A DNA stretch of 57,712 nt, filler included, from Asterionella formosa (Eukaryota): NCBI GenBank assembly GCA_002256025.1. It is 5 parts of 5 records of this genome, joined end to end, with 100 filler letters (N's around TTAATTAATTAA, not from the genome) between each part and the next. Parts side by side here need not be neighbours in the genome. Positions count along the whole stretch, not along the records: positions 34,711 to 46,166 come from NKIB01008482.1; 4 more parts are not named here. One strand, written 5' to 3'. Below are positions 684 to 55,166 of the stretch, piece after piece. The translations under genes and the position numbers were made by a program. The first letter of the stretch is position 1, and the number at the start of each line of letters is the position of its first letter. The notes beneath the pieces were generated by a model, which saw only the letters and a list, made by a program, of their open reading frames with translations, did no database searches and was not told the origin of the DNA.

Positions 684-1159
684 TGAAAACTATCATATTT
701 CCATGATTCATCATAGGATTGTGATCATCTGATCATAATTTTTCGTTATATCATCTAATAATTTTGATAAATGCCTTTGTAATTTAAATAGTAACCCTTT
801 TGACTACATATATTTAATTATTATATGTATTCTTTCTATTTGATTCCTGTATTCGAATTTCTGGGTAGGATAATGTACCAGTTCAAGTAATGTAATTTGG
901 CTCGTCATTTCCATCCGTCATTACTCCGATTTTTGCAACTACAACGAAATACTAGCGATGACAAGCGGAATGAATGTTTGCGATAACGTCTTCAATTTGT
1001 TGGTCAAGTGATCTTTATATCTTCGAGTAATCGTCATGTGCAGTGAACCTTTGTTCATAATCATTCAATTAAGAGTTTACAGGAGAGAAGAAACCATGCT
1101 CATTCGAACTTGTAATGTTTCCGCACACAGCGCACAAAGTATATCCGTTTCGTCCACTT

Positions 1160-2260
1160 CAGCATGACAATCTTGCCAATCAACCCGTAAGCAAACACAT
1201 TCTACTTGTTCTCGTTGACATTTTCAATTCTCACATGATACTACATCTACTATTTCGATTCAGCATAGAAGGAGATACGAAAATGTGCGTAACAGACTAC
1301 TGTCCACATAGCTATAGTTATAGAATGATTCTGATTAGAATTTCATTTTCATATCGCTCGCTCGTTTCTGCATTTGGTATACTGTACTTGAATTAACTAT
1401 TGAACTTGTCCGCATCTTTGATACCATCAAGAGAGCGAAAGCAAGTGGCTCTTTTCATTGTTGTTTGCTCGTAGGAAGAATTTGATATCTGTATCGTCAT
1501 TTGCTTGTTGGAATTGTCCGTTGCCTCAAACTTGCTTGGCGTGTGCGTGCACACACTGTCGACTTGTTTTCAATGGTATGTTGTTCTTGTATTCACTGTT
1601 GAACTTGTCCGCATCTTTGTAACCATCGATAGAGGGACAAGTGGGTCTCTTCATTGTTGTTTGCTCCTGGAAAAGTCGGTGTCCGTGTCATCCTCATCAA
1701 TAGAGAGACAAGTTCTTTCGTTGGAAAAATTGGCACCCGTGGTATCATCACTCGCTCGTTCGAACCACTGTCCGTTGCCTCAAACCTGATTAGCGTGTGA
1801 GTACCGGTATGTGCACTGTCGACTTTAGTTCATTACAGGCGGAGTGACTTCGCTACTAAATTGCGTGATATAATATACCCTGTAGCACGATGCAGAATAC
1901 AGTTGCCTCCAAATCATCTCATCATGATTGATAAGATGATACTGTGATATCATGATAAGGTTACATCGATACATACATCACCAAAGTATGATACGAAATA
2001 ATGAATAAAGTACATCACATAGCTATGATACATTGATCATAGAACTGTGATGATTTTATGAAATGTATATGACATAATTTTGATCAAAATATGATCATAA
2101 AAAAATAGTACAATGACAATAAAATACGATAAAATATGTACGCAAGTGTTACCAAGACATCATAGAGTATAAATCAAGCAATCATAAAGTATTTTCATTA
2201 ATATAAATATGTTTGTTGTTTAATGTATACAGTTAAAGTCAACAGTTAATATGATAGTAT
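1160..2260. repeat. About 1.1 kb direct repeat, copy A (copy B at 6264-7375), with internal ~200-250 bp subrepeats
   Basis: Colinear alignment by eye from CAGCATGACAATCT to ATGTATACAGT; GAACTTGTCCGCATCTTTG recurs near 1402 and 1601, TGTCCGTTGCCTCAAAC near 1515 and 1769. Confidence 0.9.
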
Positions 2261-3010
2261 TATACAGTGGATAGGATCTAAGTATATGGATGCGTTGATA
2301 TGTACATCACTAAAATATGATTTGTGAGATGGATTGATGCATATCACATACCGGTATCCTCAACAACCAGCCATCACGTTCATTGTCGTGTCGTCTTTCC
2401 TTGTTTTAGTTATATATGTGCCAGCATGTGTATTGTGTAAACACTACGCTAGCGGAACATGCATATTACACTGTGCTCTGTTCAACAATTACTACACTCG
2501 GTTACCATCACACCAGTTCCACCTCCACAGGCGCCGCAATAAGCTCCGCGAAGAGCTCCGCGTTTCCCTTCCACTGTTTTACATCATTGTCTTCTGGCCC
2601 TTCGACAACTTTCCAAATGGAATTTCACGGATTTCATGGAAAGGATCATTCAAACAAGAAACGAGACTTACTTCCATTGTTTACACTACACGACTTTATG
2701 TTTTCGGAAAAGAAAATGAAGAAAGTTATGAAATCAATCGAAGATTCCTTTGAAATCACTCAAAGATCAAATGAATTTGAACAGATTCATAATACTCCAA
2801 AAAAATAATCAAGTATGCCGATACAATAGTGGCTGAGATTGAAAAGAAGGAAAGATTGCTTTCGAAGAGGAAACCCAAACAGTTGGTCTTCGTGGATGAA
2901 GACTCTATTCGTACAGAGTCACAGTTCCACCATCCATTATCGTATTTTGCTTATTCACCCAAAATCGCTGATAATGAAGAAGAACTCAGTGATTCTCATT
3001 TATTTGATTC

Positions 3011-4620
3011 GTTCTCCACAAGTTGTAAGTTTCACTTGTGGGTGACATGCAAAATGTTGCATGATATCGGAATCACGTAGCAATCCTGCCATGAGCTGTA
3101 CTAGTTCGAAATAATGGAGTGTGCGTGGGATGATCATTTTTGAATTGTTATCAATCTTTATTTTTTTTGTCAACAGTTGACCACCAGCTAATGCTGGTGG
3201 AAATGAAACATCCATGCGTTTTTTCAAAGTCTGGTAGGATGGATCTTGATACCTTCCATCAAAATATTTCATTGCTTTTGCCTTGAACAGCCATTTCATT
3301 AGATGATCAAAGTAAACTGGTGGAAGATAATTCTCGTTGAGGAATAACATGAGTTCTAATTCAATTGGATGCATGTTCAGAGAATGTTTACTTGGAAGTT
3401 GAATTTGAGGAGGAAGGGGCATTTCCATTGGATTTTCAGGGAGAAAGCCGGTGCAATCTTGAAAATCTGAATATTGCATGGTTTCTGAATTCAACCCTTG
3501 GAGAGTTTTTAGTCTCAATTGTTCGTCCTGTTGTGACTGAATATTGTTATAACCTGAATCGTCGCTGTCGTCATGGAGTGGATGATTGTGGTCACTTGAT
3601 TCAAGGATAGGACACATAATCTCTTCTTGTCTAATCTCCCCAAATGCTGCAGCACTTACACTGCCATCATTAACTTCTTTCCTTGACTGATTAGATGCAC
3701 TACCGCAATACATAGTTTCACTATGTATTCCAGGAACTCGATGTTCCTGCATGCAATGTCGACAGTGACCATATGCATAAAAAACACGGTTGCTACAATT
3801 TCGATTGTGAGACTCAGATGGGGATTTGTTCTTACGAAATGTGTAGTTATACAGATAACACCATTGCAATGTGCGCAAAGACATTGAAATTGCAAATGAT
3901 GACCAAGTCAGGATATGAAAAGGGTAGAATGAAAATGAATTAATATATTATAATAAATTGAGCGCCACTTCGAACATGCTGTGCTGGAAAATACAGAGTC
4001 GTGAAATTATCACTCCACCATAGTAGTAAAAATGGAGGTATACCGCTACATTTAGTACAGGCGGCACTAATAGTAATAGTAGTATAGTGCAGAATCAATG
4101 TTTTCCTATCATCTATGTTATGGCTTGCATTTGTAGAAGTCTCACACTAACTATAATTATTATGTAACTACTAAGTATGCATTGGATTCCATTAGATCCA
4201 TTCAAAATCATCATCGTCATCAATGTCCCGTTGATTAATGCGGTCATTATAATCAATATTCTGTTCAGGAACATTTGGTTGAAGTGATTCAACAAATTCA
4301 TGTATATCCTCTTTACTTACGTTGGGAAATGAGAAGTATGAGTGTGGGTAGATGATATTTGTGGTGGGAGTAGCAATTCGACTAGGATTCCTTCCATATT
4401 CAGATCGATTCTTTTGTGAAATTCCAGTGTAGATTTCCTTATAATAAACGAGTAAATCATCAGTCCATTGATCAGTAGGACCATTTGAAACTGAACTTTC
4501 TTCACTCACACTTTTTTTAATAAGTGGTTTCCCACCAATGTCGACAAAATCGGTAGAATGACGAATTTCGTTCTCTGAAATTTCATGGGTATCTGGATTG
4601 AAACCAAAATATTTTTGTTG
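3011..4620 (-). mobile_element. Partial copy of the Plavaka-like DNA transposon (3' end of accessory ORF plus N-terminal ~290 aa of transposase)
   Basis: Colinear with 36556-38075; ORF 3000..3884 matches the fragments at 36332-37432 and ORF 4192..4509 matches 37739-38078. Confidence 0.85.
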
Positions 4621-6132
4621 TAATATATATATGATATATTGTTATTGTCATATGATGTACCGGTACACATGAAGAGCTCTCAACCAAAAAAGGGGCTTAA
4701 ACAATTTGCTACCAAAACCCTTGCGGCAATTGAACGGTCTAAATAATTAGTTTCAACGGACGTGAAAAATATCGATGCAAACAAATTTCAGAATCAATAC
4801 CGGTACAGGTAGTCGTGGAAAACAATGGACGTATAGTGCATTGAGTATTTTCGAATTATGTATTTGCGAGTATGATCATCCCAACCATATCAGATGTTCC
4901 ATATCGAAAGGGCCTTTGAATTTTATTAATGTATAACACTTAATATATATATATATTTACAAATTTTATTACTATATTCATGGCCAATATATTTTTCAAA
5001 TCGTTCTGTCATGTTAACAAACAATGCCTGCTGCTTCATGAAAAGATATGTCGTAGTAAAGCAAATGACAATAAAAGAAAGTTTACGCAATACATAACGA
5101 AAAACATTGTGGCTTCGACACATTGCGTATTCGAAGGATGGAGAATGATTAAGGTAATGAAGCCATCAATGTGGTACTTGGATGACAATCGTTGGGAGGC
5201 AGGCAGCACAACAACAAATTGTTAACTAAACGCACATTTCCTTTTTTCTCAGTTGATTCAACAGCTCGTTTCGCTTGTTGGGGAGCACCAATGTAAAACA
5301 AAACCAAATTGCGTAAGTGCTCTTGTCGCTTGTTGGACCTATTCACTTCTGTTGGAACAAAACTGACAAAATGTTTACCTTCTCTCAAAGTTAAGCTGAC
5401 AAAAATGAACCGGTAAGTTTTATTCGACAACATTGGATACCCGAAACTTACTTATTCAAGAATTTACTGACAATTTACTGTAATAGACTTATGCATCATT
5501 TGCATTGATTTGTGGTAAGTGAAGCAAGAGGATACGGTGGAATTATGTGTCGTTGTGTCAATGTAACATGACTAGCTGACAAATCATTCCTTCTCATTGT
5601 TACTATAACTGCATGCATAGGAAAATAAAACCGATCAAACGCAATAGCCGGCGAGTTCACAATGACACTAACAGCAGGGAGAGAGACACAACATTAGTAA
5701 GGCATTGCTTGGCACAAGCTTGGCACAAGATTCAGAAAAGAGGAAGAAAAGGGTGAGACAGGAACAATATACATCGAGCCGAGTAGAGAGGGAAACGTTG
5801 GGTCGCTGGCATGTAGATTAATAGATAGCATTGCTTAGTAATTTGATAGTTAAATTACAATCCATTTCAATCTATTTTGAACAATGCTTGTGATTAGAAT
5901 TATGATCATGTTTACGATAGATTTACGATGAAACAATTCACATGATAGCATAGAGTTGAGCTGATTTTAGGATGCGTTGTAGTAATGATTTACATCGGGC
6001 GATCACGAGAAGTGAAAATAATATGAGAAGGTTTATGATATTGACGAGAAAAGTTGTTGATCAGTTTATATACATTGTGTGATGATAATGCTCTTATTAT
6101 CATTATACTTCAAGGTCGGTAACATATTAATA

Positions 6133-6260
6133 AATCATCATAGATACAAGATACCTTGATCATATTTTTGATCCAAAAATTATCATATATACGAAAATCC
6201 TGTGCCACTTAGCGTACGATACCCTTGATCCTATATGCATGATACTACTTATTTGCAGAC
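6133..6260. repeat. About 128 bp segment that is the reverse complement of 34483-34610
   Basis: AATCATCATAGATACAAGATACC...GATCCTATATGCATGATACT reads as an essentially exact reverse complement of the sequence just before the gap at 34611. Confidence 0.9.
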
Positions 6261-6263
6261 ACA

Positions 6264-26329: not shown

Positions 26330-26423
26330 TGCAAGTTGCGGTCATTTTGCTTAAACTAACTTTTTAATCTGGGATAAAGATAGCTAAATCTTTAGCTTCA
26401 GCAAAATTACCGCAACTTGCTGG
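26330..26423. mobile_element. MITE copy 1 (Tc1/mariner-type; left tip eroded)
   Basis: TIR GCAAGTTGCGGT.ATTTTGCT / AGCAAAATTACCGCAACTTGC-TGG then TA; colinear with 29086-29181. Confidence 0.8.
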
Positions 26424-26807
26424 TACCTGGTACCAGGTACCTGTTCCCATTGCACATGAAGTTCGCACATTGCTTCGGCTGGACTAGAACTAGTCTACCG
26501 TACTTATTAGGTAGTACAAGGTACAAGGTTCACCGTATCCATTGCGCACGTTGCAACTAAATAGGAATACAGTATAGAGCAAGCTGATGCCGTCGTAGGT
26601 TACTTGTACCAGGTACCAGTACAAATGTAGCGCTAGCTAAGAATTTAAAAAGATTTTACGAGTACCGGTATTCACATACCGTACCTGGTACCAGGTAGCT
26701 AATCATAGTCCTCACAGATACACTGGTATACGTAGGATCTTGTGATTATATTCATAAGCAATAAGTGTCACAACGACCCAACTATAAACTCGTATATCTA
26801 TGTAACC

Positions 26808-28516: not shown

Positions 28517-29085
28517 TGTTGACTCTTTTATAGTAATAGTCTTTTGACTGGTGGACTGCGAAGAACTAGTGTGGGTGCTTCTTGAAATGTTATTGCATTA
28601 CGGTGCCAGGTAGTAGCTACCAGACAAAGATGAAACCAAAATAGGTAGACTAGCCTGGTACCAGGGTACCAGGTACCACCACTATGCCGTGCTCTCATGA
28701 TCATGCAGATCATCAGTGCCAGCACGATGCATCAAAAGCCAAACCTTTCATCCGGCTTCGGCACCCTTCGATGTTTGTTTCGTCTGACTCAAGATCATCC
28801 TCCAGCCAAACAGACAGACCAAAAAAGGGAATGATACTGTACAACGGACCGATAACGAGACACGCGGTAAATCATGATTGGGTTCTTGGCTGGAGAGCAG
28901 AAACCGGCAGTACTGGTGCGAGTGGGATGGCTTTTCCTGTATATAGGGCTCTGGGAGTATTCTGCTCTATACAGGGCAATACTGTCCGACCGTCGCGAAA
29001 ATTGCATCAGAAAGACAAACATTATACTACCGGTACGTGTGTATCCTGGTACCAGTAGCACGTGTCAGGCCGGGGGTACCAGGTA

Positions 29086-29181
29086 CCCGCACGTTGCGGT
29101 AATATTGCTTAAACTAACAATTTAATCTAGGATAAAGATAGCTAAACTTTTAGTATCAGCAAAATTAACGCAACTTGTTGG
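29086..29181. mobile_element. MITE copy 2, 96 bp, flanked by TA on both sides
   Basis: TA|CCCGCACGTTGCGGTAATATTGCT...AGCAAAATTAACGCAACTTGTTGG|TA. Confidence 0.82.
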
Positions 29182-29607
29182 TACTGTACATGGAATTTTA
29201 TTCAAATTTCTTTGGTAGAATATTTTACCAACGGATCCTGGTACCTGATAATGTGATACCTGGGACCAGTACCAGGGTACCAGGTACCAGGACCATGGAC
29301 CAGTAGTTTCTGATTGTATTCCGGTATGGGCATACTTCCCTGTACATATCATCAACATGCATGTACATTTTTACAGTACCCGTATGTAAATATGTAGCTC
29401 GACACTTTCAAATCGGGCTTATATCAAGTAGAGTGCGAGGTCCAATGTGTCTGTATGTAGGCGTATTGTACAAATATGTTGCTTCATATAACACCATTTG
29501 GCCCTGACGTACCGTGTGTTAGTTGTAAAACAATGGTACCCTGGTACCAGGGTACCAGGTACCTGGTACCTTGTAGACTACCAGTACCCTTGGAGTATTG
29601 TAATATA

Positions 29608-29851: not shown

Positions 29852-31135
29852 ATGCAGAGCATTAATACCACAGGCACTCCACGACAAGTAGCAATGCTCC
29901 CTGAACATGATATTTCTCATCGAAGTCGAGAAGTGGATGAGTTTCACAACATGGAACAACAAAGTATTCTCGTTCCATTGAAACCAAAACCATACGATGT
30001 AGCATTGGAGTTGGAGAAAGGTGAGTGTTTGTTAGCACATCTACTGCATTCATTCATTCATTCGATAACTCATCACTCCACGAAGAATCACCTCGCTCCG
30101 AGGCTGTTAAACTAATGATTGGCGCGGGCGGCATTTACATCGCCTTTTTGTGGTACGGATCTCTGCAAGAAGATGTTTTCTCGTTTCAAACGGCAGATGG
30201 AACCAAATTTACCTTTGTTTGGTTCTTACAATGCATGGAAGCATGTACCAACATCGTCGTCGGATTGGTAGGAAGACACTTCTGTGGAGGGGTTCCAAAC
30301 TTGCCACTGCGGCAATTTGCCCTCACTGGACTGTCGCAAGTCTTGTCCAAGGCTCTGACAGCCCTGTCCCTAGCGTCGGGGTTGTCCTTTCCAGTTGCAA
30401 CCTTGGCCAAATCGGGAAAAATGGCACCCGTCATGCTGGGTCAACTGATTCTGGGCGGGGCCACGTATTCCCTGCGAGAATATTCACAGGTAGCTGCAAT
30501 TATTGGGGGAACGGCAATGTTGAGTTTGGGAAAGAAGGTGCGCAAGTGTTATTATTTCTTCTGCCTGTTTCTGATTGTAAACTATAGTGTACATACACAC
30601 TCACCAGAGCGAATATCACCAAATGAAGGGTGGAGAATCAACGCTGCTTGGTGTACTTTTTATCATACTTTCCCTCGTTATGGATGGAATTACTGGGGGT
30701 GTGCAAAAGAAGTTAAAGGCCGACATGGCTCGCATTGGTTTGGCACCCAAACCATATGACTTTATGCTTTACACAAATATCAGTATGGCTACCATTGCAT
30801 TTATCATTTCCATTTCAATCGGGGACTTTGCACAGGGATGGAACTTCTGTTCGGCGCACCCACAAATATTGACATTAGTGATTCAATTTTCTTGTTGCTC
30901 GGCAATTGGACAATCATTCATCTTTTATACCGTGGCAAACTTTGATCCATTAGTGTGTTCGACTGTGACCACGACAAGAAAAATCGTCTCGGTTCTTCTC
31001 TCGATCATTCTCAAGGGACATACACTTTCGTTGCAGGGACTGGGAGGATTGTCCTTGGCGATTGGAGGAATTTTAAGTGAAGTGCATGCCAAAATCAATT
31101 CTTCAAGAAAGCTCAAATCAAAAGTAAGCATGTGA
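29852..31135 (+). CDS. UAA-family solute carrier (SLC35B1/HUT1-like); probable join(29852..30020,30086..30537,30608..31135)
   Basis: GIY..FL.YG.LQE, SFPVATLAKSGKMAPVM, SLVMDGITGGVQ, AIGQSFIFYT, TVTTTRK motifs; first intron acceptor is uncertain. Confidence 0.88.
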
Positions 31136-34225: not shown

Positions 34226-34482
34226 CTGACGCAAAAATGATGCTATCGGTTCTTGGGAAATCCTAAATGCTGTCAACCCCCCATCTACTGTGATGTAGGA
34301 TGACAAAACCATTATAAAAAAAGTAAATTATTTCTATTAGGCTGCTTTTATAAATGAATTCTTATGATTCCTATTAGGGAATGAGTTAGTTTTTCCCACA
34401 ATTTGAGCGATGCTGCTGTCTTGTTGTCATCCAACTACACACCAGTATGTATATATATATAGAATATAGAGTCGTAAATATC

Positions 34483-34610
34483 GTCTGTAAATAAAAAGTA
34501 TCATGCATATAGGATCAAGGGTATCGTACGCTAAGTGGCACAGGATTTTCGTATATATGATAATTTTTGGATCAAAAATATGATCAAGGTATCTTGTATC
34601 TATGATGATT
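34483..34610. repeat. Inverted copy of 6133-6260, truncated by the gap
   Basis: Direct reverse-complement comparison. Confidence 0.9.
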
Positions 34611-34710: not shown

Positions 34711-37430
34711 GTACTAACCCTGACAACGAGGAACTCGTGGACGCTCTACAATATATTGCCGCCTGAATCGACTGTTTGAGATTTGGGATTCGGATGTAAG
34801 TTATAGGCAGGAAATTGATGACCTTTTTTGCCATGTATCACTTGCAAAAACAATTTTTCGTGCTAAGGAAAAATGCCTTGTTTCATATGACCTTGTTAAA
34901 ATGTCATGCTTTAATCAATGTAATTGTCTATTGACACGCTTACTGGGTCGTTTCAATTTGTCTTTCAAAAAAGACTCCAAATATCCACCAAAACAATTAA
35001 GAGGAGATCTGAACTTCCTAATCAGATGAGGGTAATGTTTCATTCCATGAAATTTTGCCATTCGTAAGCCAATTTGAGATATCATTTCCCATTGGGGGAC
35101 CAATCATAATCTTAGTAACTGACATAAATCTCTTAACCCTTTCCTCTAAAATATCAATACATGTTAATGTATACTGCGTTATGAATAGAGCTTCATTGAT
35201 AGATATACATAACCATAACAGCAATGTGAAATCCTTTTCTAGGTGCATGTTCTCTGAACCCATCATTCCACCCATTGAAAAAATAGTTAACAGACATAAT
35301 CCGGGAATTTCTTGCCCTGACATTTTTGACAAAGCTGTCATCCCAGATCTGAATGACAATTTTGGAATATCACAATCGCTTTGCCTTTCCAAATGACTAT
35401 TGATATATCTAGCACTTTGTTGTAAGTATAGTTTCGAAAATACATTTCTGGTGCTGGTACAAGTGTTGGGTCTTGATTTTTGCCAGTGTAGATATTTTTG
35501 ATAACTGGTGCGTGTGTCCTTTTTGGTCTTTGCCTGTTTCTTCAGTTGATCTTGATCAAGAAAAGCAGTGTCTGTTGTTTCAGTGATACGTTTCTGATCA
35601 GAGATGTTCTCTGGAATATCTGGAGATTTTCTTTCTTTAAAAAAACATGTCCATTCTTCAGGGATAGTCCGATAATTGTACAATGATTCCAAAATGTACT
35701 TAAATATTCCAAGTAGTAATTGATGAAGAACCTCAAATGGAGTTGCACCAAATAATCCTTCTAAGTCACCACCAAAACAACAAATGATTTATTAGTGCAG
35801 GCACAATAGGATTATGCGATATAACACTGCACCACTCGTTTGCTGTTGCGTATTTGCCATTAGATTGGGAGACACAATACACAGGTGGCTGGGATACATG
35901 GTAATTTTCCATCGGGATATGCATTTTTGTCAAGAAATTTGTTTAAAAACTTTTTGACATCTGACACTTTACGACGTTCACATCCAATATTGGGATTATC
36001 AGCATCTTCAGTTGAAACCAGGCAATCACGACAAACATATCGTCGATATTATCCATTACCACCCCTGAAACCACAAATTTGTTGTGCTCTTCTAAATCAC
36101 CAATGATCATTCCAATCTGGAAATAAAATTTTGTCATACCAAGACCATGAGCCCAAATATCGTATGACTTGTTTGGATCGCTCTTCGAATGGCGACAATA
36201 GAAATCCTGTAACAGAATGGTATAATTTGAGTCTACACAAGGACAAGTCATCACCAGATAACTTATTATTCATTTGTTTCTCCAGATCACTGACTTCAAT
36301 GTCTGGAAAAAGAGATACCAATTGCCATCCATCAACTTTTTTCATTCCTTCCTTCTAACGTTAAGTTTAACATTGTCAACAAAAACGGATGCTCGGAATG
36401 TTTCATTTGTTTATCAATAGGTGAACCATCACTGAAAACTGCTAGGGCAACAAATAAACACCCTGTCTTCAACACTCCATTTTCTGATGCAGGAGAATTG
36501 TTGAATCCATTTTCAAACCAAGTCGCGGAAGTTACTTCGTCATATATATGCATGCGTTCTCCACAAGTTGTAAGTTTCACTTGTGGGCGACATACAAAAT
36601 GTTGCATGAAATCGGAATCACGTAGCAATCCTGCCATGAGCTGTGCTGGTTCGAAATAATAGAGTATGTGTGGGATGATCATGTTTGAATTGTTATCAAT
36701 CTGTATTTGTTTGGTCAACAGTTGAACACCAGCTAATGTTGGTGGAAATGAAATATCCATGCGTTTTTTCAAAGTCTGGTAGGATGGAGCTTGATACCTT
36801 GCTTCCATCAAAATATTTCATTGCTTTTGCCTTGAACAGCCAATTCATTAGATGATCAAAGTAAACTGTTGGAAGGTAATTCTTGTTAAGGAATAACATG
36901 AGTTCTAATTCGATTGGATGCATGTTTACTTGGAAGTTGAAATTGAGGAGGAAGGGGCATTTCCATTGCATTTTCAGGGAGAAAGCCGGGTGATCTTGAA
37001 AATCTGAATATTGCATGGTTTCTGAATTCAATCCTTGGAGAGTTTTTAGTCTCAATTGATCGTCTTGTTGTGTCTGAATATTGGTATAAACTGAATCGTC
37101 GCTGTCGTCATGAAATGGATGACTATGGCCACTTGATTCAAGGATAGGACACATATTCTTTTCTTGTCTACTACTCTCCCTAAATGCTGCAGCAGTTACA
37201 CTGCCATTAACTTCTTTCCTTTAATGATTCGATGCACTACCGCAATACATAGTTTCATTATGTATTCCAGGAACTCGATGTTCTTGCATGCAATGTTGAC
37301 AGTGACCATATGCATAAAATACCCGTTTCTACAATTTCGGTTGTGAGAATCAGATGGGGATTTGTTCTTTCGAAATTTGTAGTTACACAGATAACACCAT
37401 TGCAATGTCCGCAAAGAAATTGCAAATTTC
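34711..37430 (-). mobile_element. Plavaka-like (CACTA-related) transposase pseudogene
   Basis: Across frameshifts: AVFSDG...HPFLLTMLNL, WQLVSLFP, LKLYH, IIGDLEEH..C...CRDC, GLFGATPFEVLHQLLLGIFKY, KMSGQE, KFHGMKHYPHLIRKF...N...LES...K.P.KR. This is the motif order of Plavaka transposases. Confidence 0.8.
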
Positions 37431-37738
37431 AAATGATGACCAAGTCAGGATATGAACAGGATAGAAGGAAAATGAATTACCGGTAATAATAATAATAATA
37501 ATAATAATAAACTTAGCATCACTCCGATCCTGCTGTGTAGGACAATACAGAGTCATGAAATTATCACTCCACCATTGTAGTAAAAATGGAGGTATGCCAC
37601 TACATATAGTACAGGCGGCACTAATAGTAGTATAGAACAGCGTCAATGCTTTCCCAACATCTATGATGTGGTTTGCACTGTAGAAGTCTCACACTAACTA
37701 TATTTATTATGTAACTACTAAGTTTGCATCGGATTCCA

Positions 37739-39538
37739 TTAGATCCATTCAAAATCAACGTCGTCATCAATGTCCCGTTGATTAATGCATTCATTGTAAT
37801 CAATATTCTTCTCAGGAACATTTGGTTGAAGTGGTTCAACATATTGATGCATATCCTCTTCACTTACGTTGGGAAATGAGAAGTACTTCCTTATACTAAT
37901 AAACGAGTATATCATCAGTCCATTGATCAGTGAGACCATTTGAAACTGAACTTTCTTCCCTCACACTTTTTTTGATAAGTGGTTTCCCACCAATGTCGAC
38001 AAAATCGGTAGAATGACGAATATCGTTCTCTGAAATTTCCTGCGTATCTGGATTGAAACCCAAATATTTTTGTTGCAATCGGAATTTTCATTTCAGCACC
38101 AAGAAGCAAAAGGCTTCTGTACTGGCATTGATCAGCGAACAAACAAAATGTGATTGCAATTCGCAGTGTGCCTTAAGACTGAGTTGAAATTTGGTCACAC
38201 CAGATTTGTCTCCTGTTAAAAATGGTTCTCCACGGCTTGTCCTGCCAATAAAATACACTGGAGCAAGAAAATCACGCCAGACTTGGTATCCTTGGCTTCC
38301 CCTGTCAATGTCCTTTGACTGCGCAAAACGATAAAGTGTGAACGCCCAACTAATAAAGTCATCAATATCCATATTCTAGAAGTTATATACTGTTAGAACA
38401 GCTGGTGTGTCATGAATTATGTCAGCATTTTTAAATTGAAACATATTTGATAAGAATACAATCACCGACTCAAAACATCATGCTTTCAGAGCATCTCCCG
38501 CCCTGCAAGAACTTACCTAAGATTCCTTTAAATTGATTATTCAATACATTCTGACATTCTCTCAACTTTTTATGCACATGCCACCAAATGTTGATTTGAT
38601 GTAATCTAAACATGCCTTGTTGGTACGTTCAATGGTCTGATTCATTGGAAGTACTAGTGCATCAGAACCATTCCATATGAAATCGGCAAGCTCTGGGTCA
38701 CTCTCGAATTCTTTGCCTAACTCCGGTTTCACTGTGTATAGCCGAGTTAGGCAACATTCGGCAAACCAATCCTGTTTGTGATTGGTAATGCCTTTCATAC
38801 TATTGGGACCGCCCAGATAGGGCGGGATGTTTGATTCTCTTATGGGACCAGAAAAAAGCACATTAGATTGATATTCTGTTTTACAGTACTAACTGCAATT
38901 CACGAACTATAGCTAACATCAAACTTACATGTTCACAGCAAAACTTCTTGGTCTTGAAAATAAAACTCACAACCTTTGTGACAATTGATGGTTCAATTTT
39001 AGCTAAGCGGGAAATTTCTGATAAGGCTGCTGAAATTGAAGATTCTTGATAACCTCGTATAGACGAGTTTTGAACCGAATTACGACCTTTGTAGTGATTG
39101 AGTTCATTGACCAATTGATAATATCCTTTGGCAAGTGCAAAATCTTTTTCCCTCAGTTTGTCATGTACTTGTTGGTCCGTGCGATTAGAAAATTTATGAT
39201 ATGGTACCATGTTGTCCATCTGCATCCGGGAGTTATTAATGGTATCATCGACAAGAGCAGTTTTTCTTGTATCAACAACTGAAAAAGAAACGTCGCTCAT
39301 CATCGCTTTCAGTATCAATTATGGGATCCTTTGTACTAGTAGCTGATGGTGTCCCCATCGACGATGGGGTAGTACCCCCAACGTCTCCCAATCGCCGATT
39401 GGGTTGCTTTGGATAATTGCCTATTCGCTTTTTCTTTGTTAACTCATTTTGGTACTTGCTTCTTCTTTGTTCCATACCGGCAGTATATGCCACATGTCGC
39501 TTGTTTCCATGAACCTCTTTATGGTTTTTTGAAGACAT
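37739..39538 (-). pseudogene. Fragmented accessory ORF (~600 codons) upstream of and co-oriented with the Plavaka-like transposase
   Basis: Abutting minus-strand ORF pieces from MSSKNHK to DDDVDFEWI*; its 3' part is duplicated with the transposase start at 4192-4620. Confidence 0.65.
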
Positions 39539-39744
39539 TGCTTGAACTACTAGATAACTGTTGTAGTTGTCTTCCTTAAAGTTCGATGATCTTAAAATCA
39601 GGTGTTGCTAGCTACAATGAAATAATCATCAGCTACTACATATAATATTTTACACTGTCTAGATATGATACCATAAAACCAACAGTGCTATTTACATTAT
39701 CATATACAAAATCAGAACCAAGTTTGAGTAATAGCATATCTTGT

Positions 39745-39935
39745 TTTCAATTTTACGATCATACAATCCTGAAACTATGATGTTTTACTGTCCCACTGTA
39801 GTAGCAACAGTCCTGAACATATGGTGTTCTGTTGCTTGCTTACTACTCCGACTACCCTCTTTCAATTGTACGATCATACAATCCTGAAACTATGATAATT
39901 TACTGTCCCGCTACAGTAGCAACAGTCATGAACAT
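39745..39935. repeat. Two ~75 bp direct repeats with 115 bp period
   Basis: TTCAATT.TACGATCATACAATCCTGAAACTATGAT...AGTAGCAACAGTC.TGAACAT at 39746 and 39861. Confidence 0.88.
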
Positions 39936-45185: not shown

Positions 45186-46481
45186 CTGCTTGCTGGATAG
45201 CACCTTTTGTCATGGTAAATCGGCCGTTTTTAGGAATTATTAAGTATTACTAGAACCCAGAGGTCCCAGTTGCTTGAATACCACTAAATTCTGTGATAAG
45301 CACTGTGGTACTGTGTTAGTCTTTCGTTAACTCGCCTTCATACTTGTCAAGCAAAGGAGAAACGATTTAGAGAGTATACCAGTATTAATTAATTCGTACT
45401 CGTTGATGGTACATATTCAGAATTTGACATACGCACGGCAAGCACAGCCTTTCGTTTGCTTTCTCCAACAGCGGCAAACTGAATACCAGAAGATGATCAT
45501 ATGAACACACGTACGCATGCTCCTAAGTAGTACCATAGATACCATTGGTCTTGGCAGCAAGTTTTGAGCTATTTATGGTGTAAGACCACTTTGATGTGGC
45601 GAATGTCATCATCGTCCCGCAGCAAGCAACAAACGACCAAAATGCCTTTGATGATCAGCCATAATATATTCATAGCTGAATATATGCTTGCTTGCTCGTT
45701 TCTGTAGGCGTACATACTACGGAGTATATATATACCGGGTACCCGGTTGGTCATACCGGTATATATTTACATATGTATGCACACATCAAAATAAATGCAG
45801 GTTTATTTATTATTACATATTGTATCAAATCTCGTATTCATAATCCAAACTACAGGGACCCACCATTTCACTTGACCTCAATGATGCGAGAAAGAGTATG
45901 TTGGAACGGTCGGTCAACTGGTGATGAATGCACTGTGGACTTTGTTATTTGCAAACATAAAAATATAGATCTATACCAACATCGGGAGTACCTGATGGTG
46001 AACCCAAGCAAAGTGCCAACTTTTGAAACTTGAGTATAAGTATTTATTTTACACGTTGGAGGACAAAATAGTGAAGAAAAGGTGAATCGCATTGTTGTCC
46101 CTCGATTACTGGTCCTCCACTATACTCCTTGCGCCTTTCATTTAGAGCTTCTGTCCCTAAGGACATNNNNNNNNNNNNNNNNNNNNNNNNNNNNNNNNNN
46201 NNNNNNNNNNTTAATTAATTAANNNNNNNNNNNNNNNNNNNNNNNNNNNNNNNNNNNNNNNNNNNNCACCATGATTCGTCTATCGATATACCCGTACTGG
46301 TATTTGGTGTGCTGTTCTTACAAATTGGAAGGAAGCACAGTCAACAGTTACTGCTTTGCGGATTTTCTACAAGGATACCAGTAGATCATACAACAGATGG
46401 GTTTTTTAGAAACAATCGCAGATCCCCTGAGGCAAGGACAACGAAGAAGAGTCTCGATAACCAAAATCAGATAAAGAAGTG

Positions 46482-48641
46482 ATGGATCGAAGTGCAACGC
46501 TGACAACAGCGACCATGAAAACAACTGAGGATCCCGATATGGTGTTGGCTGCGAGGCAACGACGTAGGAAGCTGTTCGGAGATTGCGCTCTTGTGGAGAT
46601 TATTCACCTTCACGATTGTCTGCGAGGTGCTCTGAAAGCTCTTCAAGAAGATGTATCTCAGCTTAACCAATCTGTCATGACTGGAAGTCAGGTGGCTGGT
46701 GAGCTGGAGCGACGAGTGGCTGGACGATTCAAGGTGATTTGGTCTGTCTTTCGAGCACATTCTACAGCAGAAGACGAATTTATTTGGCCAGCTCTTCAGA
46801 GTAAAACGTCAAGAAAGATTGGATCTCCAAAGTGCAATAGCAATAACCACGAGGATACAGAACCAGGTCCTAGCGTAGTCGAACAGGAAGAATATGTTGA
46901 AGATCACGCCGACGAGGAACGCATGTTCAAAACGTTTGATGCACTTTTGTCCAAGCTCCGAGCGGGTCTCGTAAAGAATGATACAGAAGAGGCTTCAAAC
47001 CATGACATGGCGAACGCTATTCATGAATTGACGGCATCTTTGATGCAACATCTCATGGCTCACCTAGACAAAGAAGAGACGCAGTGCATGCCCCTTGTTG
47101 TCAAGCACCTCACAAAATCGGAAATTCATGATCTTGTGGGCCAAATCATGGGAAAACGATCCTCAGAGACCATCGCTCAGATCATGGCCATGGCTGTTCA
47201 AAATCTGAATGAATCAGATAGAGAGGATATGGTATTCTACATGAAGCAAGCGATGGTCGGGACGTTCTTCGAAAAGTGGCTTGCTATGAGTGGGTGGATG
47301 ACATCCAAAACGGGACTTCCACAGACCGAAGAAGAGGACGATAAAAAATTGAGTGCTCGCAAGCGAATCACAGAAGTGGCCGTGGAACGAGAAGAGACAT
47401 TCAAGCGAACGAGAATTGAAAGTAAATCTGACTGCAGTGATCAAGCGTCACTTGTTATCGACAGAAACAAAAAACAAGATGGGTCGGTAACAACTCAGGC
47501 AGATTTGGAAAAACTCATCCGAGCAATCGCTTCTAATCATGCTTTGACACCAATACAGAAGAATACTACCATCCAAGGTCTGCGTGACTCTGTTTGGAGG
47601 AGTAATCAACGCCTTTCCGAGGTTTGCGTTTCTTGTCCTACCCCTGTGACTGCAGCCTCTGGAAATGCTCCTAGTGTGTCACGATCTCGCAGAGAGACCC
47701 CACCTTCGAACTATTTTAAGAGAAATAGTGATGGGAAAGTCACACTAGAATGGAGCCGAGATGATTCAACATTTCCCCTTGCTGATTCGACTGTCCCCTT
47801 GTTCTCAGAGTCGGAGTTAGCTCCAACGCACCATGACGGAGCTAATGGTGCTGTTCTTGGCTGCCCTCATTATGCTCGCGCCGCAAAGCTTAGACACCCA
47901 TCCTCAGGACGTCTGTACACGTGCCGCCTTTGCTGTGAACAGGAACGCGAAAATCCTCTCAAGGATCAAGATTCTCCGCTCGATCGTTACGCTGTGGTAG
48001 AAGTACTTTGCATGCGGTGCTGTACATTACAGCCTGCTGGTGATCATTGCATCAACCCGAAATGCGATTCTCGTGGATCTTGTTTTGCCAAGTACAATTG
48101 TAAGATTTGCAATCTATATGATGATGGACCCACAAAGACTATTTACCACTGTCCTTTTTGTAACGTATGTCGATCTGGGCAAGGTCTTGGAATTGACTAC
48201 CGTCACTGCATGCGATGCAATGCGTGTGTCTCTCTGGCGGATGATCAGCATCACTGTATTTCACAAAAGCTGCAAGGAAGCTGTCCCATCTGTCACGAAA
48301 GTATGTTCCAATCTACGGAACCTCTCCGTGGCCTCAAATGCGGCCATGTGATGCATTTGTCGTGTTTTACTATGTACATGAGAGGGCAGGCATACACGTG
48401 CCCTCTGTGTAAAAAAAGTGTCGAAGACATGAAGGAATATTTTGCCATGCTCGACGCTGCTGTTCGAATGCAACCAATGCCTGCTGCATACTCTTCTACT
48501 ATGAGCAACATCTACTGCCAAGACTGTGAAAGCACTGGACAAGTTCAATATCATTTTGTTGGTTGCAAGTGTACCAAATGTGGCTCTTACAATACTCGAG
48601 AACTCGGGCGCGTCCAAGGGTCCCCTCGAACGGTTCCCTGA
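46482..48641 (+). CDS. Hemerythrin plus CHY/CTCHY zinc finger, RING-H2 and zinc-ribbon E3 ubiquitin ligase (BRUTUS/HRZ-like)
   Basis: HDCLR, HSTAEDEFIWPAL, DHADEE, HLDKEE (HHE motifs); GCPHYAR..CRLC; YHCPFCNVCR; CPICHE...CGHVMH..C...YTCPLC; C.DC...YHFVGCKC..CGSYNT. Confidence 0.92.
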   Translation: MDRSATLTTATMKTTEDPDMVLAARQRRRKLFGDCALVEIIHLHDCLRGALKALQEDVSQLNQSVMTGSQVAGELERRVAGRFKVIWSVFRAHSTAEDEFIWPALQSKTSRKIGSPKCNSNNHEDTEPGPSVVEQEEYVEDHADEERMFKTFDALLSKLRAGLVKNDTEEASNHDMANAIHELTASLMQHLMAHLDKEETQCMPLVVKHLTKSEIHDLVGQIMGKRSSETIAQIMAMAVQNLNESDREDMVFYMKQAMVGTFFEKWLAMSGWMTSKTGLPQTEEEDDKKLSARKRITEVAVEREETFKRTRIESKSDCSDQASLVIDRNKKQDGSVTTQADLEKLIRAIASNHALTPIQKNTTIQGLRDSVWRSNQRLSEVCVSCPTPVTAASGNAPSVSRSRRETPPSNYFKRNSDGKVTLEWSRDDSTFPLADSTVPLFSESELAPTHHDGANGAVLGCPHYARAAKLRHPSSGRLYTCRLCCEQERENPLKDQDSPLDRYAVVEVLCMRCCTLQPAGDHCINPKCDSRGSCFAKYNCKICNLYDDGPTKTIYHCPFCNVCRSGQGLGIDYRHCMRCNACVSLADDQHHCISQKLQGSCPICHESMFQSTEPLRGLKCGHVMHLSCFTMYMRGQAYTCPLCKKSVEDMKEYFAMLDAAVRMQPMPAAYSSTMSNIYCQDCESTGQVQYHFVGCKCTKCGSYNTRELGRVQGSPRTVP

Positions 48642-48686: not shown

Positions 48687-51248
48687 TTAGTCCTCGTCGT
48701 CGCCATCAGGGCCGCAGTCCACGATACCTGGCATCCATTCCTCAAATTCTCCCTCTTCTCCCTGATCAGCCGATGTTGATTCCGTGCTCATGAATCGTTC
48801 ATCGTCGGCAGTTTCAATAATCTCTACAAGAGGGTTTGTTTCCTGCGATGAAACCTCGGGCTCCACTGGAACTGGTTCTGTTGATTTGATCGTTGCTGTT
48901 ATGTGGAGATTCTCAGTTTCCACGGTTAGGAATGACGGAGGAGACTTCGCTTTCTTGTACTTTTGCATTCTATCATCATCACACTCCTTGGACGTTCGTT
49001 TTGGCTTTACTTTTGATTTCACATCGTCTTTGGCAATCTCATCTTTTGCCGCCTTTAGGCTGTCCACGATGATTGACGCGGATTCTATTTCAACACATCT
49101 GTCTGTTTGTCCACCAGGTGTGGACCTTGTGGCAACACAGAGAGGTGGAGCCCTAAAAGTAGACTGTAAATTGCACAGTTGTAGGCAGTGAAGGGCCAGT
49201 GCGGACACGCCGTGGTTACTGTCCTTAACTAGCACTCTTGCAGTCTCTCGCAAGACCGGTGTCAAGGCACTCATTGCTGAATCTTGCCAAGGAATGCTAA
49301 TGCAGGTGAGACCAAAGTTGAGAGCGGCAACCTTCGCCTGACTCCAACGGGAAACCTTACTGCTTGACTTTCCAACATATTCATTTAAACACGTGAGCGC
49401 TGTGGAATCTACCAAGGATCGCATCTTGAAGGGCAAGAAGCCCCCGCAACTATTCAGAGTTGCGGTGAGGGCATCCATTGCGGCGGTGGCTAGGCCAACG
49501 CGTTCTTTCAGGGTGCCCCAATCGTCATCGGTCCCGTCCCAGCCGACCTGTTCCAGAACACATCCTGCGAGAAGCAGAATCATCTTGCCTCCCTCATTTG
49601 AATTTCTGTTCCTCCTGGCATCCGAGCTGTTTGACGATTCTACGACCATATTCGAGCCTAAAACGACTATGACCGATCGAGCATTTTGAACTCCTTTGGT
49701 TCTCAGGAATACAGACTGGTGTAGCCAGCGCCTTCTCTTTACATCCAACCCGATTGCGCTACCTGGGTCAACAGCCTTTCTCAAAGCAGTTGAACAGGAG
49801 GTTTGAAAAGAGGCATGGCTAAGAGAAGTGATCCGTCTTCCGTACTGTAAAAGAGGAGATCTTCCAAGTCCATCCAAAACCACCTGGAATATGGTTTGAC
49901 CCATGGCCTTGATGAAGTTTGCGACATCGGTCGCAATGGCGTAGGGACTAAGAAGGCCATCTTGAATCGTCTCTAATCTTAAGCGTTTCTTCGTTCCGTA
50001 GTAGGCACTCTCAGCAGCAGAAGGATAGGACAGAAGATATTCCAGAAGCTCAAGGAGTTCTTCCATTGGGATAAGCGAAGCGTTCAACGCTGTTCTGCAA
50101 TGGGAATCGACGAATTCTCTCTGAAGTAAAGCAACGATGTATCCAACTAACCCATTAACACATGTTCTGAAGTGCAAAACCTTTGAGCCTTCGTCAGGTA
50201 ATTTCTCTCTTGTCTGATCAAGCCAATCACCAATAGTTGTCTGCGTCTTCGCTGAGAGCCGTAGGTCAAATTGGGATGTCTTACAATTCACAGGTGCAAC
50301 TGCCTTTATTACCATCATTATTGCTGAAACTCCATCAGAAAAAGCAATTGACCAAGCATCAGATGGTGCAACATTATCAATACCGGTCAATGTCAATGAC
50401 GACAACAAGCGGGCTGCACCTTGTTGCACATTCTCATTCGATTGGAGAATCGCCTGCCACCCAACGGAACGAAGACATTCAACTATTGGAGAGCTACGTG
50501 CAAGCTTGTTTCCAAATAGCGAAATTAGAGAAGTCGCACTTGTAAGGCAAAGTTTCAATGCTTCGTCGCTTTCGTTGAACCGTGTTTTGCCGCTGGAAAG
50601 CAGCCCTTTCATAGTTCGAGCGAATCCAGTAAGAAGGCATTTTCCAGATGTGGCTAGCAACTCATATTCCGCTAATGCGCAGGGACTCCCCGAGATAAAA
50701 ATTCGCACATGTTGCGAAATAGCTAAACAGACTCCAGCTGCCAATTGAATCGAAACCAAATCGGGGCCTTTGGCAAGGGTTCGAGGCGAGGCAAGGTCCT
50801 GGCCGCCCCCTAAAATTCTAGATAGAGCAGCGATGATGAGTTGCTCGCTATCGGCAATAGTTCCGTCGCCTGACTTTTCTAAATTTTCTGATTCGTTAAT
50901 GATTCGCAAGTCATCTCTGCCGTTGTTCCTAGCTTTATTCCCCATCCCCTTCTTCCTGCTGGTGCCACCACCAACTCCTGAAGATTGGGGTCTAGATGCC
51001 AAAAGCTTTTCTGCTTTTGATTTATTACCCTGTAGGAGACCCTTTCTCGAAAATAATTCCATCATGGCTCGCAAAAGGCAATGGAGATCACCCACCTTCT
51101 TGTGGTTGCATCTCTCACCTGACCTGACAAGCGCCATTAAGCGTGGACCAAGTCCATCATTGTTATTCGTATCATCATTAAGTTCCGCTGGTAGAGCAGG
51201 AAGAGGAGGATTCAAACCGTTCGGTATGGGGTAAATGTTAAGGTCCAT
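48687..51248 (-). CDS. Probable RIX1/PELP1-like HEAT/ARM pre-rRNA processing protein
   Basis: About 850 aa Leu-rich helical ORF with IPMEELLELL and acidic tail ending MPGIVDCGPDGDDED; product inferred from weak motifs. Confidence 0.6.
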   Translation of the reverse strand: MDLNIYPIPNGLNPPLPALPAELNDDTNNNDGLGPRLMALVRSGERCNHKKVGDLHCLLRAMMELFSRKGLLQGNKSKAEKLLASRPQSSGVGGGTSRKKGMGNKARNNGRDDLRIINESENLEKSGDGTIADSEQLIIAALSRILGGGQDLASPRTLAKGPDLVSIQLAAGVCLAISQHVRIFISGSPCALAEYELLATSGKCLLTGFARTMKGLLSSGKTRFNESDEALKLCLTSATSLISLFGNKLARSSPIVECLRSVGWQAILQSNENVQQGAARLLSSLTLTGIDNVAPSDAWSIAFSDGVSAIMMVIKAVAPVNCKTSQFDLRLSAKTQTTIGDWLDQTREKLPDEGSKVLHFRTCVNGLVGYIVALLQREFVDSHCRTALNASLIPMEELLELLEYLLSYPSAAESAYYGTKKRLRLETIQDGLLSPYAIATDVANFIKAMGQTIFQVVLDGLGRSPLLQYGRRITSLSHASFQTSCSTALRKAVDPGSAIGLDVKRRRWLHQSVFLRTKGVQNARSVIVVLGSNMVVESSNSSDARRNRNSNEGGKMILLLAGCVLEQVGWDGTDDDWGTLKERVGLATAAMDALTATLNSCGGFLPFKMRSLVDSTALTCLNEYVGKSSSKVSRWSQAKVAALNFGLTCISIPWQDSAMSALTPVLRETARVLVKDSNHGVSALALHCLQLCNLQSTFRAPPLCVATRSTPGGQTDRCVEIESASIIVDSLKAAKDEIAKDDVKSKVKPKRTSKECDDDRMQKYKKAKSPPSFLTVETENLHITATIKSTEPVPVEPEVSSQETNPLVEIIETADDERFMSTESTSADQGEEGEFEEWMPGIVDCGPDGDDED

Positions 51249-54891: not shown

Positions 54892-55166
54892 TGTTGAAAT
54901 TGCGTCCTGAAGCACTCTATGCTTTCTTGTATCCTGTAAGGACAGGTCAGAGACCAAACAGACTGTAGATATGAACAACGATGTTGCAGTAATCGATTGT
55001 AATCGATCCTAAGAGTTTTAGTAGAATTATGGGTTTTACTGTTGGTGTAGATTGTTTTCGAATTCTGAGTTTTCTCTGGTACCATATTCTTTTTTGATTC
55101 GTTCGATTCAATATGTAGTAGGTAATTTATACCGGGATTTTCTTTCCTAAAATAATTTCTCCAACA
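54892..55166 (-). repeat. 3' LTR (275 bp) of Copia element, same family as 7935-8200
   Basis: TGTTG...CAACA termini, preceded on the minus strand by CAGGAGTG; aligns end to end with 7935-8200 with many substitutions. Confidence 0.9.

What the first reader, a model, noticed from the sequence alone, without database searches (positions are those of the whole stretch)
34711..39935. Two-gene Plavaka-like DNA transposon in a diatom-like genome, with an unrecognised accessory protein
Seen: a transposase with Plavaka motif order and an N-terminal Cys/His cluster (CxxC...H...C, HCxHC...H), preceded by a co-oriented ~600-codon ORF with a basic N-terminus and acidic DDDDFEWI end. Both genes are duplicated together at 3011-4620, so they travel as a unit. 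Known: Plavaka transposases are described mainly from fungi, and related CACTA elements carry a second gene. Inference: a poorly characterised stramenopile family with a novel partner protein.
Basis: partly seen in the sequence, partly recalled or inferred. Interest (0 to 1): 0.7.

Follow-up and report, generated by a model that had tools for sequence, protein, structure and literature searches.

The report
Three-gene algal transposon leaving GC scars
This stretch is a broken piece of an abundant 12-kb jumping gene that carries three genes (a transposase, an unknown spliced partner and a probable SUMO-type protease), and it is the best candidate for the tiny stereotyped GC scars that pepper this genome's repeats.

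Summary
The two genes are real, but the window holds only a truncated, frameshifted 5.1-kb part (34833-39935) of a ~12.07-kb, three-gene Plavaka-type (CMCT) DNA transposon. The element has ~23-bp TIRs (CGTCTG..CAGACG; 824 core matches in the genome, 0 in the control) and 2-bp TSDs (5 of 9 end pairs). It encodes ORF1 (558 aa, two introns spliced in contigs of three studies, no family or fold match), a ~1165-aa transposase (Pfam Plavaka, CMCT motifs) and a convergent 720-aa ORF3 that is probably Ulp1-like (inconclusive). Homologues of ORF1 and ORF3 recur in sister families. The spliced allele matches a transposase-less ORF1+ORF3 copy. Copies carry about 1.4 insertions per kb of the form XY-GC-XY or XY-G/C-XY, whose flanks match this family's insertion-site preference (r=0.77; 1 of 2000 random sets). 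I read them as its excision footprints, made through flank hairpins; this is inferred. The scan noted the scars (source unidentified) and a Plavaka+Ulp1 element elsewhere in this genome; the link between them is tested here. Multi-gene Plavaka and CACTA-ULP elements are published, so this is a new variant of a known kind.

The parts
39744..39935 (-). Last 1.7 units of a ~115-bp tandem repeat array that lies upstream of ORF1; the window copy is 5'-truncated here (about 1.7 kb, with the left TIR, is missing)
38929..39538 (-). ORF1 exon 1 (ATG at 39538; basic then acidic low-complexity N-terminus), frameshifted in this copy
   Evidence: exon limits from L119 RNA joints
38839..38928 (-). ORF1 intron 1 (GTAAGT..AG; 83 nt in the near-intact copy, 90 nt here because of two small insertions)
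   Evidence: (joint 3075-3159 in X2, X3, X5)
38517..38838 (-). ORF1 exon 2: conserved ~105-aa all-helical domain (KHPA..DWFA..C..IWNG..TFGG.CI), no known fold match
38402..38516 (-). ORF1 intron 2 (GTAAGT..AG; 111 nt in the near-intact copy, 115 here)
   Evidence: (joint 3472-3584 in X2, X3, X5)
37739..38401 (-). ORF1 exon 3 with the STEAF..L and NGLT..W.D..L.YY motifs shared with a second family; acidic end DIDDDVDFEWI; ~96-nt deletion at 37886 in this copy
34833..37420 (-). Plavaka-type transposase pseudogene (residues 1 to ~860 of ~1165): Cys/His N-terminus, D in FSDGS (36422-36435), D in GD (36087-36101), CxxC (36022-36033), HxxxH (35035-35055), E in YLES (34972-34983); cut off at 34833
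35884..39546 (-). Seven XY-GC-XY 4-bp insertions in the window copy (at about 39541, 39296, 38912, 38811, 38500, 36801, 35888): proposed excision footprints
686..6261 (-). Second copy on another contig: 5.6-kb internally deleted derivative with left TIR (6239-6261, first base decayed), left arm, ORF1 end (4192-4624), transposase start (3007-3884), ORF3 start and right arm lacking the last ~13 bp
2617..3008 (+). First 132 codons of ORF3 (convergent, probable Ulp1-like protease gene); the catalytic part is not in the window
   Evidence: full ORF3 on L119 10465-8279 and L145
6262..7450 (-). Further fragments of the element's right arm and transposase 3' end
34482..34610 (+). Left TIR and first 129 bp of another copy, at the end of the preceding contig (not contiguous with the finding)

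Best explanation
The locus is a dead, doubly truncated copy of a ~12.07-kb cut-and-paste DNA transposon of the Plavaka type (CMCT clade). SHOWN: layout left TIR - 115-bp tandem repeats - ORF1 (3 exons) - transposase - ORF3 (opposite strand) - right TIR; ~23-bp TIRs starting CGTCTG; 2-bp TSD; hundreds of ends in the genome, shared with shorter non-coding elements; near-intact copies in metagenome contigs; spliced ORF1 and a long ORF3 contig matching a transposase-less copy. INFERRED: the DDE transposase pairs the TIRs, excises the element and inserts it with a 2-bp stagger at sites with a weak (T)-R-A-S|XY preference. Excision nicks the non-transferred strand one base inside the element and closes each flank into a hairpin whose apex is the terminal C; opening and end joining leave XY-G-C-XY or XY-G/C-XY (about 0.65 that this TIR family makes the scars, about 0.5 for this exact geometry). 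The scars land in the element's own copies and are a main cause of their frameshifts. ORF1 is most likely a non-catalytic partner that helps assemble the transposition complex, as TnpA does in CACTA elements (about 0.45; position, conservation and expression only). ORF3 is most likely a Ulp1/C48-type cysteine protease that removes SUMO or ubiquitin-like marks to counter silencing (about 0.6 for the fold, function from analogy).
For: 94 matches on the 40 contigs scored of 1045 candidates. Shared ends. 824 TIR-core matches against 0 for the reversed pattern. 2-bp TSD in 5 of 9 end pairs, no 3-bp match in those 5. Plavaka hits and intact relatives at 47-49% identity, both Plavaka-positive. Whole cassette on L119, ORF3 open for 729 codons. 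Both introns spliced in contigs of X2, X3, X5; homologues P0050 and P0053 lose similarity at the intron 1 position. G000:C14015 has the same 4452-8265 deletion joint as the X3 contig and the same seven ORF1 variants as X2, X3, X5. Sister families: ORF1 at 27-31% (L159, L161-L163) and 44-54% (L152), ORF3 at 46-51% (L146, L152); L168 joins an ORF1 homologue to a Plavaka transposase piece. ORF3: 17 of 30 Atlas hits carry Peptidase_C48; H398, D414, Q494, C503 in order, with H, Q and C kept in a sister family. Scars: against L119, 163 of 305 four-base insertions are exact XY-GC-XY, none is CG without a GC reading, and 129 of 179 three-base ones are XY-G/C-XY, in 215 kb aligned; 167 of 207 sites are seen once. 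In other repeats 107 of 201 and 224 of 354, against 1.5% and 12% for random deletions. Flank profile of 99 GC sites against 64 termini: r=0.77, reached by 1 of 2000 random sets.
Against: The full-length L118 and L119 transposase ORFs gave no Pfam hit at all; only pieces and relatives did, so the Plavaka score is marginal. No transposase tree or structure was made. 4 of 9 end pairs lack a matching TSD (two differ by one base). ORF3 has no Pfam or PDB hit; its Atlas score is 0.93 with 161 shared features, under the 170 that the tool gives as typical of true members, and the family is on only 28-38% of the cluster members; the triad Asp is Asn in sister families. No evidence for ORF1 function. 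Scars (1.36 per kb in the copies) outnumber TIR ends (824 in 68 Mb, 0.012 per kb) about a hundredfold, which needs very many excisions per element. No site was seen both filled by an element and scarred (4 nested insertions found among 65 termini flanks, 1 inside the scored range, not at a scar site). Residual end bases would give CG, not GC, so the hairpin step is an added assumption. The TSD dinucleotides of scars and termini differ in part (TA 14 of 86 against 3 of 55; AC 4 against 10). X2 is only guessed to be RNA.
Confidence: 0.8

Rival explanations
1. The element is as described, but the GC scars come from something else: another 2-bp-TSD element with G..C ends that leaves one terminal base per side, or a host break-repair process (2-nt staggered cut, fill-in, one non-templated G per end) aimed at repeats.
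For: Such routes give GC without a hairpin. Scars occur in other repeat families too and are far denser than TIR ends. No filled/scarred pair was found.
Against: The duplicated length equals this family's TSD, and the flank profile matches its insertion sites at positions -4 to -1 (r=0.77, 1 of 2000). I did not search the genome for G..C-ended elements.
Confidence: 0.3
2. ORF1 (and ORF3) are captured cargo or anti-silencing genes with no role in the transposition reaction; ORF1 could act like a VANDAL-type anti-silencing protein on the 115-bp repeats (VANDAL as cited).
For: ORF1 and ORF3 survive open in a transposase-less copy whose allele is the spliced one. Red-algal Plavaka accessory genes move between transposon classes. 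In sister locus L146 the ORF3 homologue lies upstream of and co-oriented with a transposase start, so the order is not fixed.
Against: ORF1 lies directly upstream of the transposase in this family and, by coordinates, in a second one (C13776: ORF1 homologue 50237-50656 minus, Plavaka hit 46728-47012 minus; the stretch between was not read).
Confidence: 0.4
3. The transposase-less ORF1+ORF3 copy (G000:C14015) is a domesticated host locus rather than a young non-autonomous derivative.
For: The same allele appears spliced in three studies; ORF3 is fully open; the contigs show non-element sequence before position 2407.
Against: It is 98% identical to the near-intact element; ORF3 has 21 replacement and 10 silent codon changes on about 1731 and 429 sites, a ratio near 0.5 on small counts; 4 of 60 sequences have ORF1 and ORF3 without transposase, so the deletion type is not unique.
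Confidence: 0.15
4. One reading: ORF1 is an unlinked host gene beside a transposase by chance.
For: 20 of 60 sequences hold ORF1 without the other genes.
Against: Most of those are short loci or contig ends; ORF1 lies inside the shared TIR-bounded unit and on L118-L120, and has well over 100 decayed copies.
Confidence: 0.02

Closest known systems
Fungal PlavakaA/PlavakaB (Kojima 2025, PMC12730594; passages; one supplement search)
   Same: Plavaka-domain DDE transposase with C(2)C and H(3-4)H motifs; TIRs; 2-bp TSD as in PlavakaA. The ends CGT..ACG differ from PlavakaA TGT..ACA only in the first base.
   Different: Ends are CG..CG, not TGT or CATCA; no TET/JBP hit; carries ORF1 and a protease-like ORF3; the transposase is only about 22-27% identical to other Plavaka families of the same genome. 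The passages read do not mention diatoms or stramenopiles (0 occurrences).
Giant Plavaka elements of Bostrychia and other red algae (bioRxiv 10.1101/2025.02.11.637652; passages; supplements not seen)
   Same: Large, abundant, mostly degenerate multi-gene Plavaka elements in an alga, with an accessory gene of unknown function (PAG1) and a tandem repeat array.
   Different: 17-19 kb with methylase/SET and ParB/2OG genes; here 12 kb with an orphan gene and a protease-like gene. ORF1 could not be compared with PAG1 (sequence not available).
CACTA-ULP and MULE-ULP (KAONASHI) elements of plants (PMC2528002; passages)
   Same: A DNA transposon carrying a ULP-like gene downstream of the transposase, in some MULEs in reverse orientation.
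   Different: Different transposase lineage, ends and TSD; ORF3 is too divergent for a Pfam hit.
Ac/Ds (hAT) hairpin footprints (PMC5873905; passages)
   Same: Joint centred on the complement of the base at the hairpin apex.
   Different: In Ac/Ds that base is flank-derived and varies; here it is a constant G/C that matches the element's own terminal C, with both TSD copies kept. In rice, footprints are heterogeneous and clean ones rare (8 of 94; PMC4423477, passages).

Membership tests
Plavaka (CMCT clade) | Pfam PF18759 Plavaka domain above the cut-off | tested here: met
   33.5 and 29.4 bits against 26.3 for pieces; relatives 50.6 and 59.3. Full-length L118/L119 ORFs gave no hit.
CMCT clade | [quoted passage not shown] | tested here: met
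   FSDG at 329, IGDT at 437, CRDC at 461, KFHGMKH at 784, YLES at 808, conserved in P0005/P0006. Assignment of the catalytic residues is by motif.
CMCT clade | TIRs and a 2-5 bp TSD | tested here: met
   ~23-bp TIR; 2-bp TSD in 5 of 9 end pairs.
PlavakaA or PlavakaB | Termini TGT..ACA (A) or CATCA..TGATG (B) | tested here: not met
   Termini are CGTCTG..CAGACG; TGT.. occurs as a minority form, read as CpG decay.
PlavakaA or PlavakaB | Placement in the transposase tree | not tested
   Reference transposases were not in hand as sequences.
DDE transposases | RNase H-like fold | not tested
Plant CACTA/EnSpm | Transposase_21 or Transposase_24 (TnpA) Pfam hits; CACTA ends; 3-bp TSD | tested here: not met
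   No such hit for any piece; ends and TSD differ.
Red-algal Plavaka with PAG cassette | PAG2 (methylase + SET) and PAG3 (ParB + 2OG) genes | tested here: not met
   No such Pfam hit on the three genes; only three genes in the 12-kb consensus. ORF1 against PAG1 not testable.
Ulp1/Peptidase_C48 (ORF3) | His-Asp-Cys triad with oxyanion Gln (pattern recalled) and similarity to the family | tested here: inconclusive
   H398, D414 (Asn in sisters), Q494, C503; Atlas 17 of 30 hits; no Pfam or PDB hit; model failed, pLDDT 31.
Any known family or fold (ORF1) | Sequence or structure match | tested here: inconclusive
   Exon-2 model pLDDT 79; best Z 3.4, Foldseek E 7.4; exon 3 was not modelled.

The most novel reading that the evidence does not exclude
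A CG-ended Plavaka lineage of diatoms, with its own orphan partner protein and SUMO-type protease, excises through flank hairpins that keep one element base, leaving a fixed XY-GC-XY scar. Those scars, more than one per kb in repeats, are a dominant frameshift mutagen that disables the genome's transposons, its own copies included, while a transposase-less copy keeps supplying the two accessory proteins. This would give a sequence-level readout of Plavaka cleavage chemistry and a countable record of past excisions.
Probability: 0.45. Interest if true: 0.72.

Novelty: new variant of a known kind. Interest (0 to 1): 0.52.

Why it matters
Plavaka elements have defined ends in fungi and red algae; I found no description of their cleavage chemistry or of a diatom family in the held library. 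This family gives ends, TSD, three genes, confirmed introns and near-intact natural copies, so it can be put into an excision assay. If the GC scars are its footprints, the cut positions of a RAG/Transib-related transposase can be read from the genome, and excision history can be counted in place. ORF1 is a conserved, spliced protein family with no match in the libraries searched. If the scar link fails, what remains is a well-annotated new family of a known kind.

Tried and rejected
Recurrent deletions at CpG sites as the source of the indels: rejected; the short allele keeps the reading frame and matches the near-intact copy, and insertions outnumber deletions at 4 bp by 305 to 33. A long-allele consensus broke the ORFs. 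By eye, ORF1's STEAF..L..W motifs resemble the ORF beside another Plavaka family (L109 7628-8671), but BLASTP gave E 1.1 and a small profile gave E 12 among 4590 ORFs: not supported. Word-index searches found nothing for ORF3 (longer proteins only) or the L109 ORF. Viral contigs: no relative. The ORF3 single-sequence model was unusable. No PDB sequence match for ORF3, the ORF1 profile or the ORF3 core alignment. No fold match for ORF1 exon 2, and no usable Atlas hit for ORF1 residues 314-474. The transposase part is thinly covered in X2, X3 and X5 contigs; that is no evidence on expression except for the X3 contig that joins across it. X1 showed no splice joints and probably holds DNA. The ORF1 exon-3 codon comparison failed twice through script errors; variant positions were read from the alignment string. 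Wider flanks of the second ORF1 family were not read, so its full layout is open. No complex prediction was run.
Full report
Observation. The window is five contigs joined by N spacers, and the finding starts at the edge of the fourth. On the minus strand lie two broken genes. The downstream one hits Pfam Plavaka above its cut-off (36335-36817, E 3.4e-8) and begins with CYLC..HNRNC..HCRHC..H. The upstream one ends DIDDDVDFEWI at 37739. Part of both recurs at 3007-4624.

The whole element. A search of the own genome gave 94 matches on the 40 contigs scored, of 1045 candidates. Twenty loci were read with wide flanks. Similarity between copies starts at one point about 1.7 kb upstream of the window copy and ends about 5 kb beyond it. 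The ends are inverted repeats of about 23 bp, CGTCTGCAAATAAAAA(G/C)TATCAT. The 15-base core occurs 824 times in 68.4 Mb, the reversed control 0 times. Of 9 places with both ends, 5 have a 2-bp direct repeat (GA, TC, TG, TC, AC), 2 differ by one base and 2 do not match. An in-script consensus is 12,074 bp: left TIR, 115-bp tandem repeats, ORF1, transposase, a third gene on the other strand, right TIR. The window copy covers consensus 1678-6967 (39935-34833). The copy on the first contig is a 5.6-kb deletion derivative running 6261 to 686. Shorter elements without these genes share the ends.

Near-intact copies. A metagenome scan returned 8 loci. L118, L119 and L120 are about 99% identical to each other; L119 holds all three genes, with ORF3 open for 729 codons and the transposase nearly open. 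They confirm the reconstruction independently.

Transposase. About 1165 aa, with D in FSDG (motif at 329), D in IGDT (437), CxxC (461), HxxxH (784) and E in YLES (808): the motif order given for the CMCT clade by Kojima 2025 (PMC12730594, passages). Two database proteins are 47-49% identical and Plavaka-positive. Other Plavaka families of this genome are only 22-27% identical. The full-length ORFs gave no Pfam hit, so the domain score is marginal. The ends fit neither PlavakaA (TGT..ACA) nor PlavakaB (CATCA..TGATG), though they differ from A only in the first base and share its 2-bp TSD. No tree was built.

ORF1. Two introns were predicted from conserved GTAAGT..AG sites and then seen as GT..AG joints of 83 and 111 nt in contigs of X2, X3 and X5, three studies; X2 is only guessed to be RNA, and X1 showed no joint. 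The spliced protein is 558 aa. A search of 1.84 billion representatives gave 53 hits, among them relatives at 31-59% over exon 2 (one hit, P0058, is a low-complexity match and was dropped); P0050 and P0053 break at the intron 1 position. A second family in this genome is 27-31% identical across residues 127-521. One of its loci joins it directly to a Plavaka transposase piece (L168), and on C13776 it lies co-oriented about 3.2 kb upstream of a Plavaka hit (the interval was not read). Exon 2 folds as five helices (pLDDT 79) with no fold match; Pfam, PDB and Atlas are blank. A partner role in transposition is my inference from position and conservation; an anti-silencing role is about as likely.

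ORF3. 720 aa, convergent with the transposase; only its first 132 codons are in the window (2617-3008). The Atlas puts its core next to clusters with Peptidase_C48 (17 of 30 hits, score 0.93, family on 28-38% of members). H398, D414, Q494 and C503 lie in the Ulp1 order (pattern recalled); a sister family at about 50% identity keeps H, Q and C and has Asn for Asp. Pfam and PDB give nothing and the model failed. ULP genes in CACTA and MULE elements are published (PMC2528002, passages).

The spliced copy. G000:C14015 has ORF3 fully open, ORF1 open as far as assembled, and lacks the transposase through a deletion joining L119 4452 to 8265. The X3 contig has the same joint, and X2, X3 and X5 share seven ORF1 variants with that copy. 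So the spliced allele is a transposase-less derivative. Its ORF3 shows 21 replacement and 10 silent changes, too few to tell domestication from youth.

The scars. Indels among copies peak at 3 and 4 bases. Against L119, in 215 kb aligned at 4.2% divergence, 163 of 305 four-base insertions are exactly XY to XY-GC-XY, and 129 of 179 three-base ones are XY-G-XY or XY-C-XY; that is 1.36 per kb at 207 sites, 167 seen once (events with another gap within 10 bases were left out). Among 4-base insertions with one possible reading, GC accounts for 75 of 102 and CG for none. The window copy has seven. Other repeats in the loci held show the same pattern (107 of 201; 224 of 354), against 1.5% and 12% for random deletions. 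The duplicated length equals the family's TSD, and the six bases flanking 99 GC sites correlate with those flanking 64 element ends (r=0.77; null mean 0.00, sd 0.22; 1 of 2000). Leftover end bases would give CG; GC follows if each flank is closed into a hairpin with the terminal C at its apex and opened on the 5' side. Ac/Ds joints are likewise centred on the complement of the apex base (PMC5873905, passages). Against this reading: scars outnumber ends about a hundredfold, no site was seen both filled and scarred, and a G..C-ended element or a host repair process was not excluded.

Earlier notes of the scan. One reports a decayed Plavaka with a SUMO-protease-like gene on another piece of this genome, another the same GC scars with no source named. 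I saw them after my own analysis; they are not independent support.

Comparison and novelty. Multi-gene Plavaka elements with an unknown accessory gene are described in red algae (bioRxiv 10.1101/2025.02.11.637652, passages; its supplements were not seen and may hold comparable proteins). Searches for a diatom family or for such footprints found no description (listings only, subscription papers and Repbase not covered). A distant relative's cluster holds Fragilaria crotonensis proteins, which fits a diatom host without proving it. Verdict: a new variant of a known kind. The element alone would rate about 0.4; the tested link to the scars and the orphan spliced partner raise it to 0.52.

Noticed in passing
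window 34713-34766 (+): End of a reading frame (TNPDNEELVDALQYIAA*) 66 bases before the element's break at 34833; X2 holds a contig that crosses this exact junction and X3 one that ends its match at the same place, so the window copy may lie in a host 3' UTR.
   Followed up: partly
L103-L116 (G000 contigs C14656, C15249, C14190 and others): At least two other Plavaka families with long open frames (up to 839 aa); neighbours include a 348-aa ORF with an SDEVF.LL.LEN motif (L109 7628-8671) and a 461-aa ORF that looks by eye like a 2OG-Fe(II) dioxygenase (L106 7038-8420), both without Pfam hits.
   Followed up: partly
L100, L101, L102 and the insertion at oriented C14337:7802: 2.0-4.2-kb elements that share the TIRs and ~165 bp of the left end but have unrelated interiors without hits to the three genes; one is nested in a copy of the main element.
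   Followed up: partly
L146 (G000:C13468): Sister-family ORF3 (51%) lies upstream of and co-oriented with a transposase N-terminus (42%): a different gene order or a rearranged copy.
   Followed up: no
window 17825-19087 (+): ORF with LPMO_10 and Chitin_bind_1 Pfam hits.
   Followed up: no
window 7935-11478 and 54892-57712: Inverted pair of similar stretches on two contigs, with weak RVT_2 and retroviral SH3 hits: probably a Copia-type retrotransposon.
   Followed up: no
window 19202-21592 (-), 46461-48641 (+), 48687-51410 (-): Long open frames (796, 726, 907 aa); the first and third had no Pfam hit, the second was not scanned.
   Followed up: no
window 26331-26434 and 29075-29184: Two copies of a ~96-bp palindromic repeat next to GGTACC-rich runs, possibly a MITE.
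   Followed up: no
window 30025-30759 (+): UAA nucleotide-sugar transporter domain.
   Followed up: no
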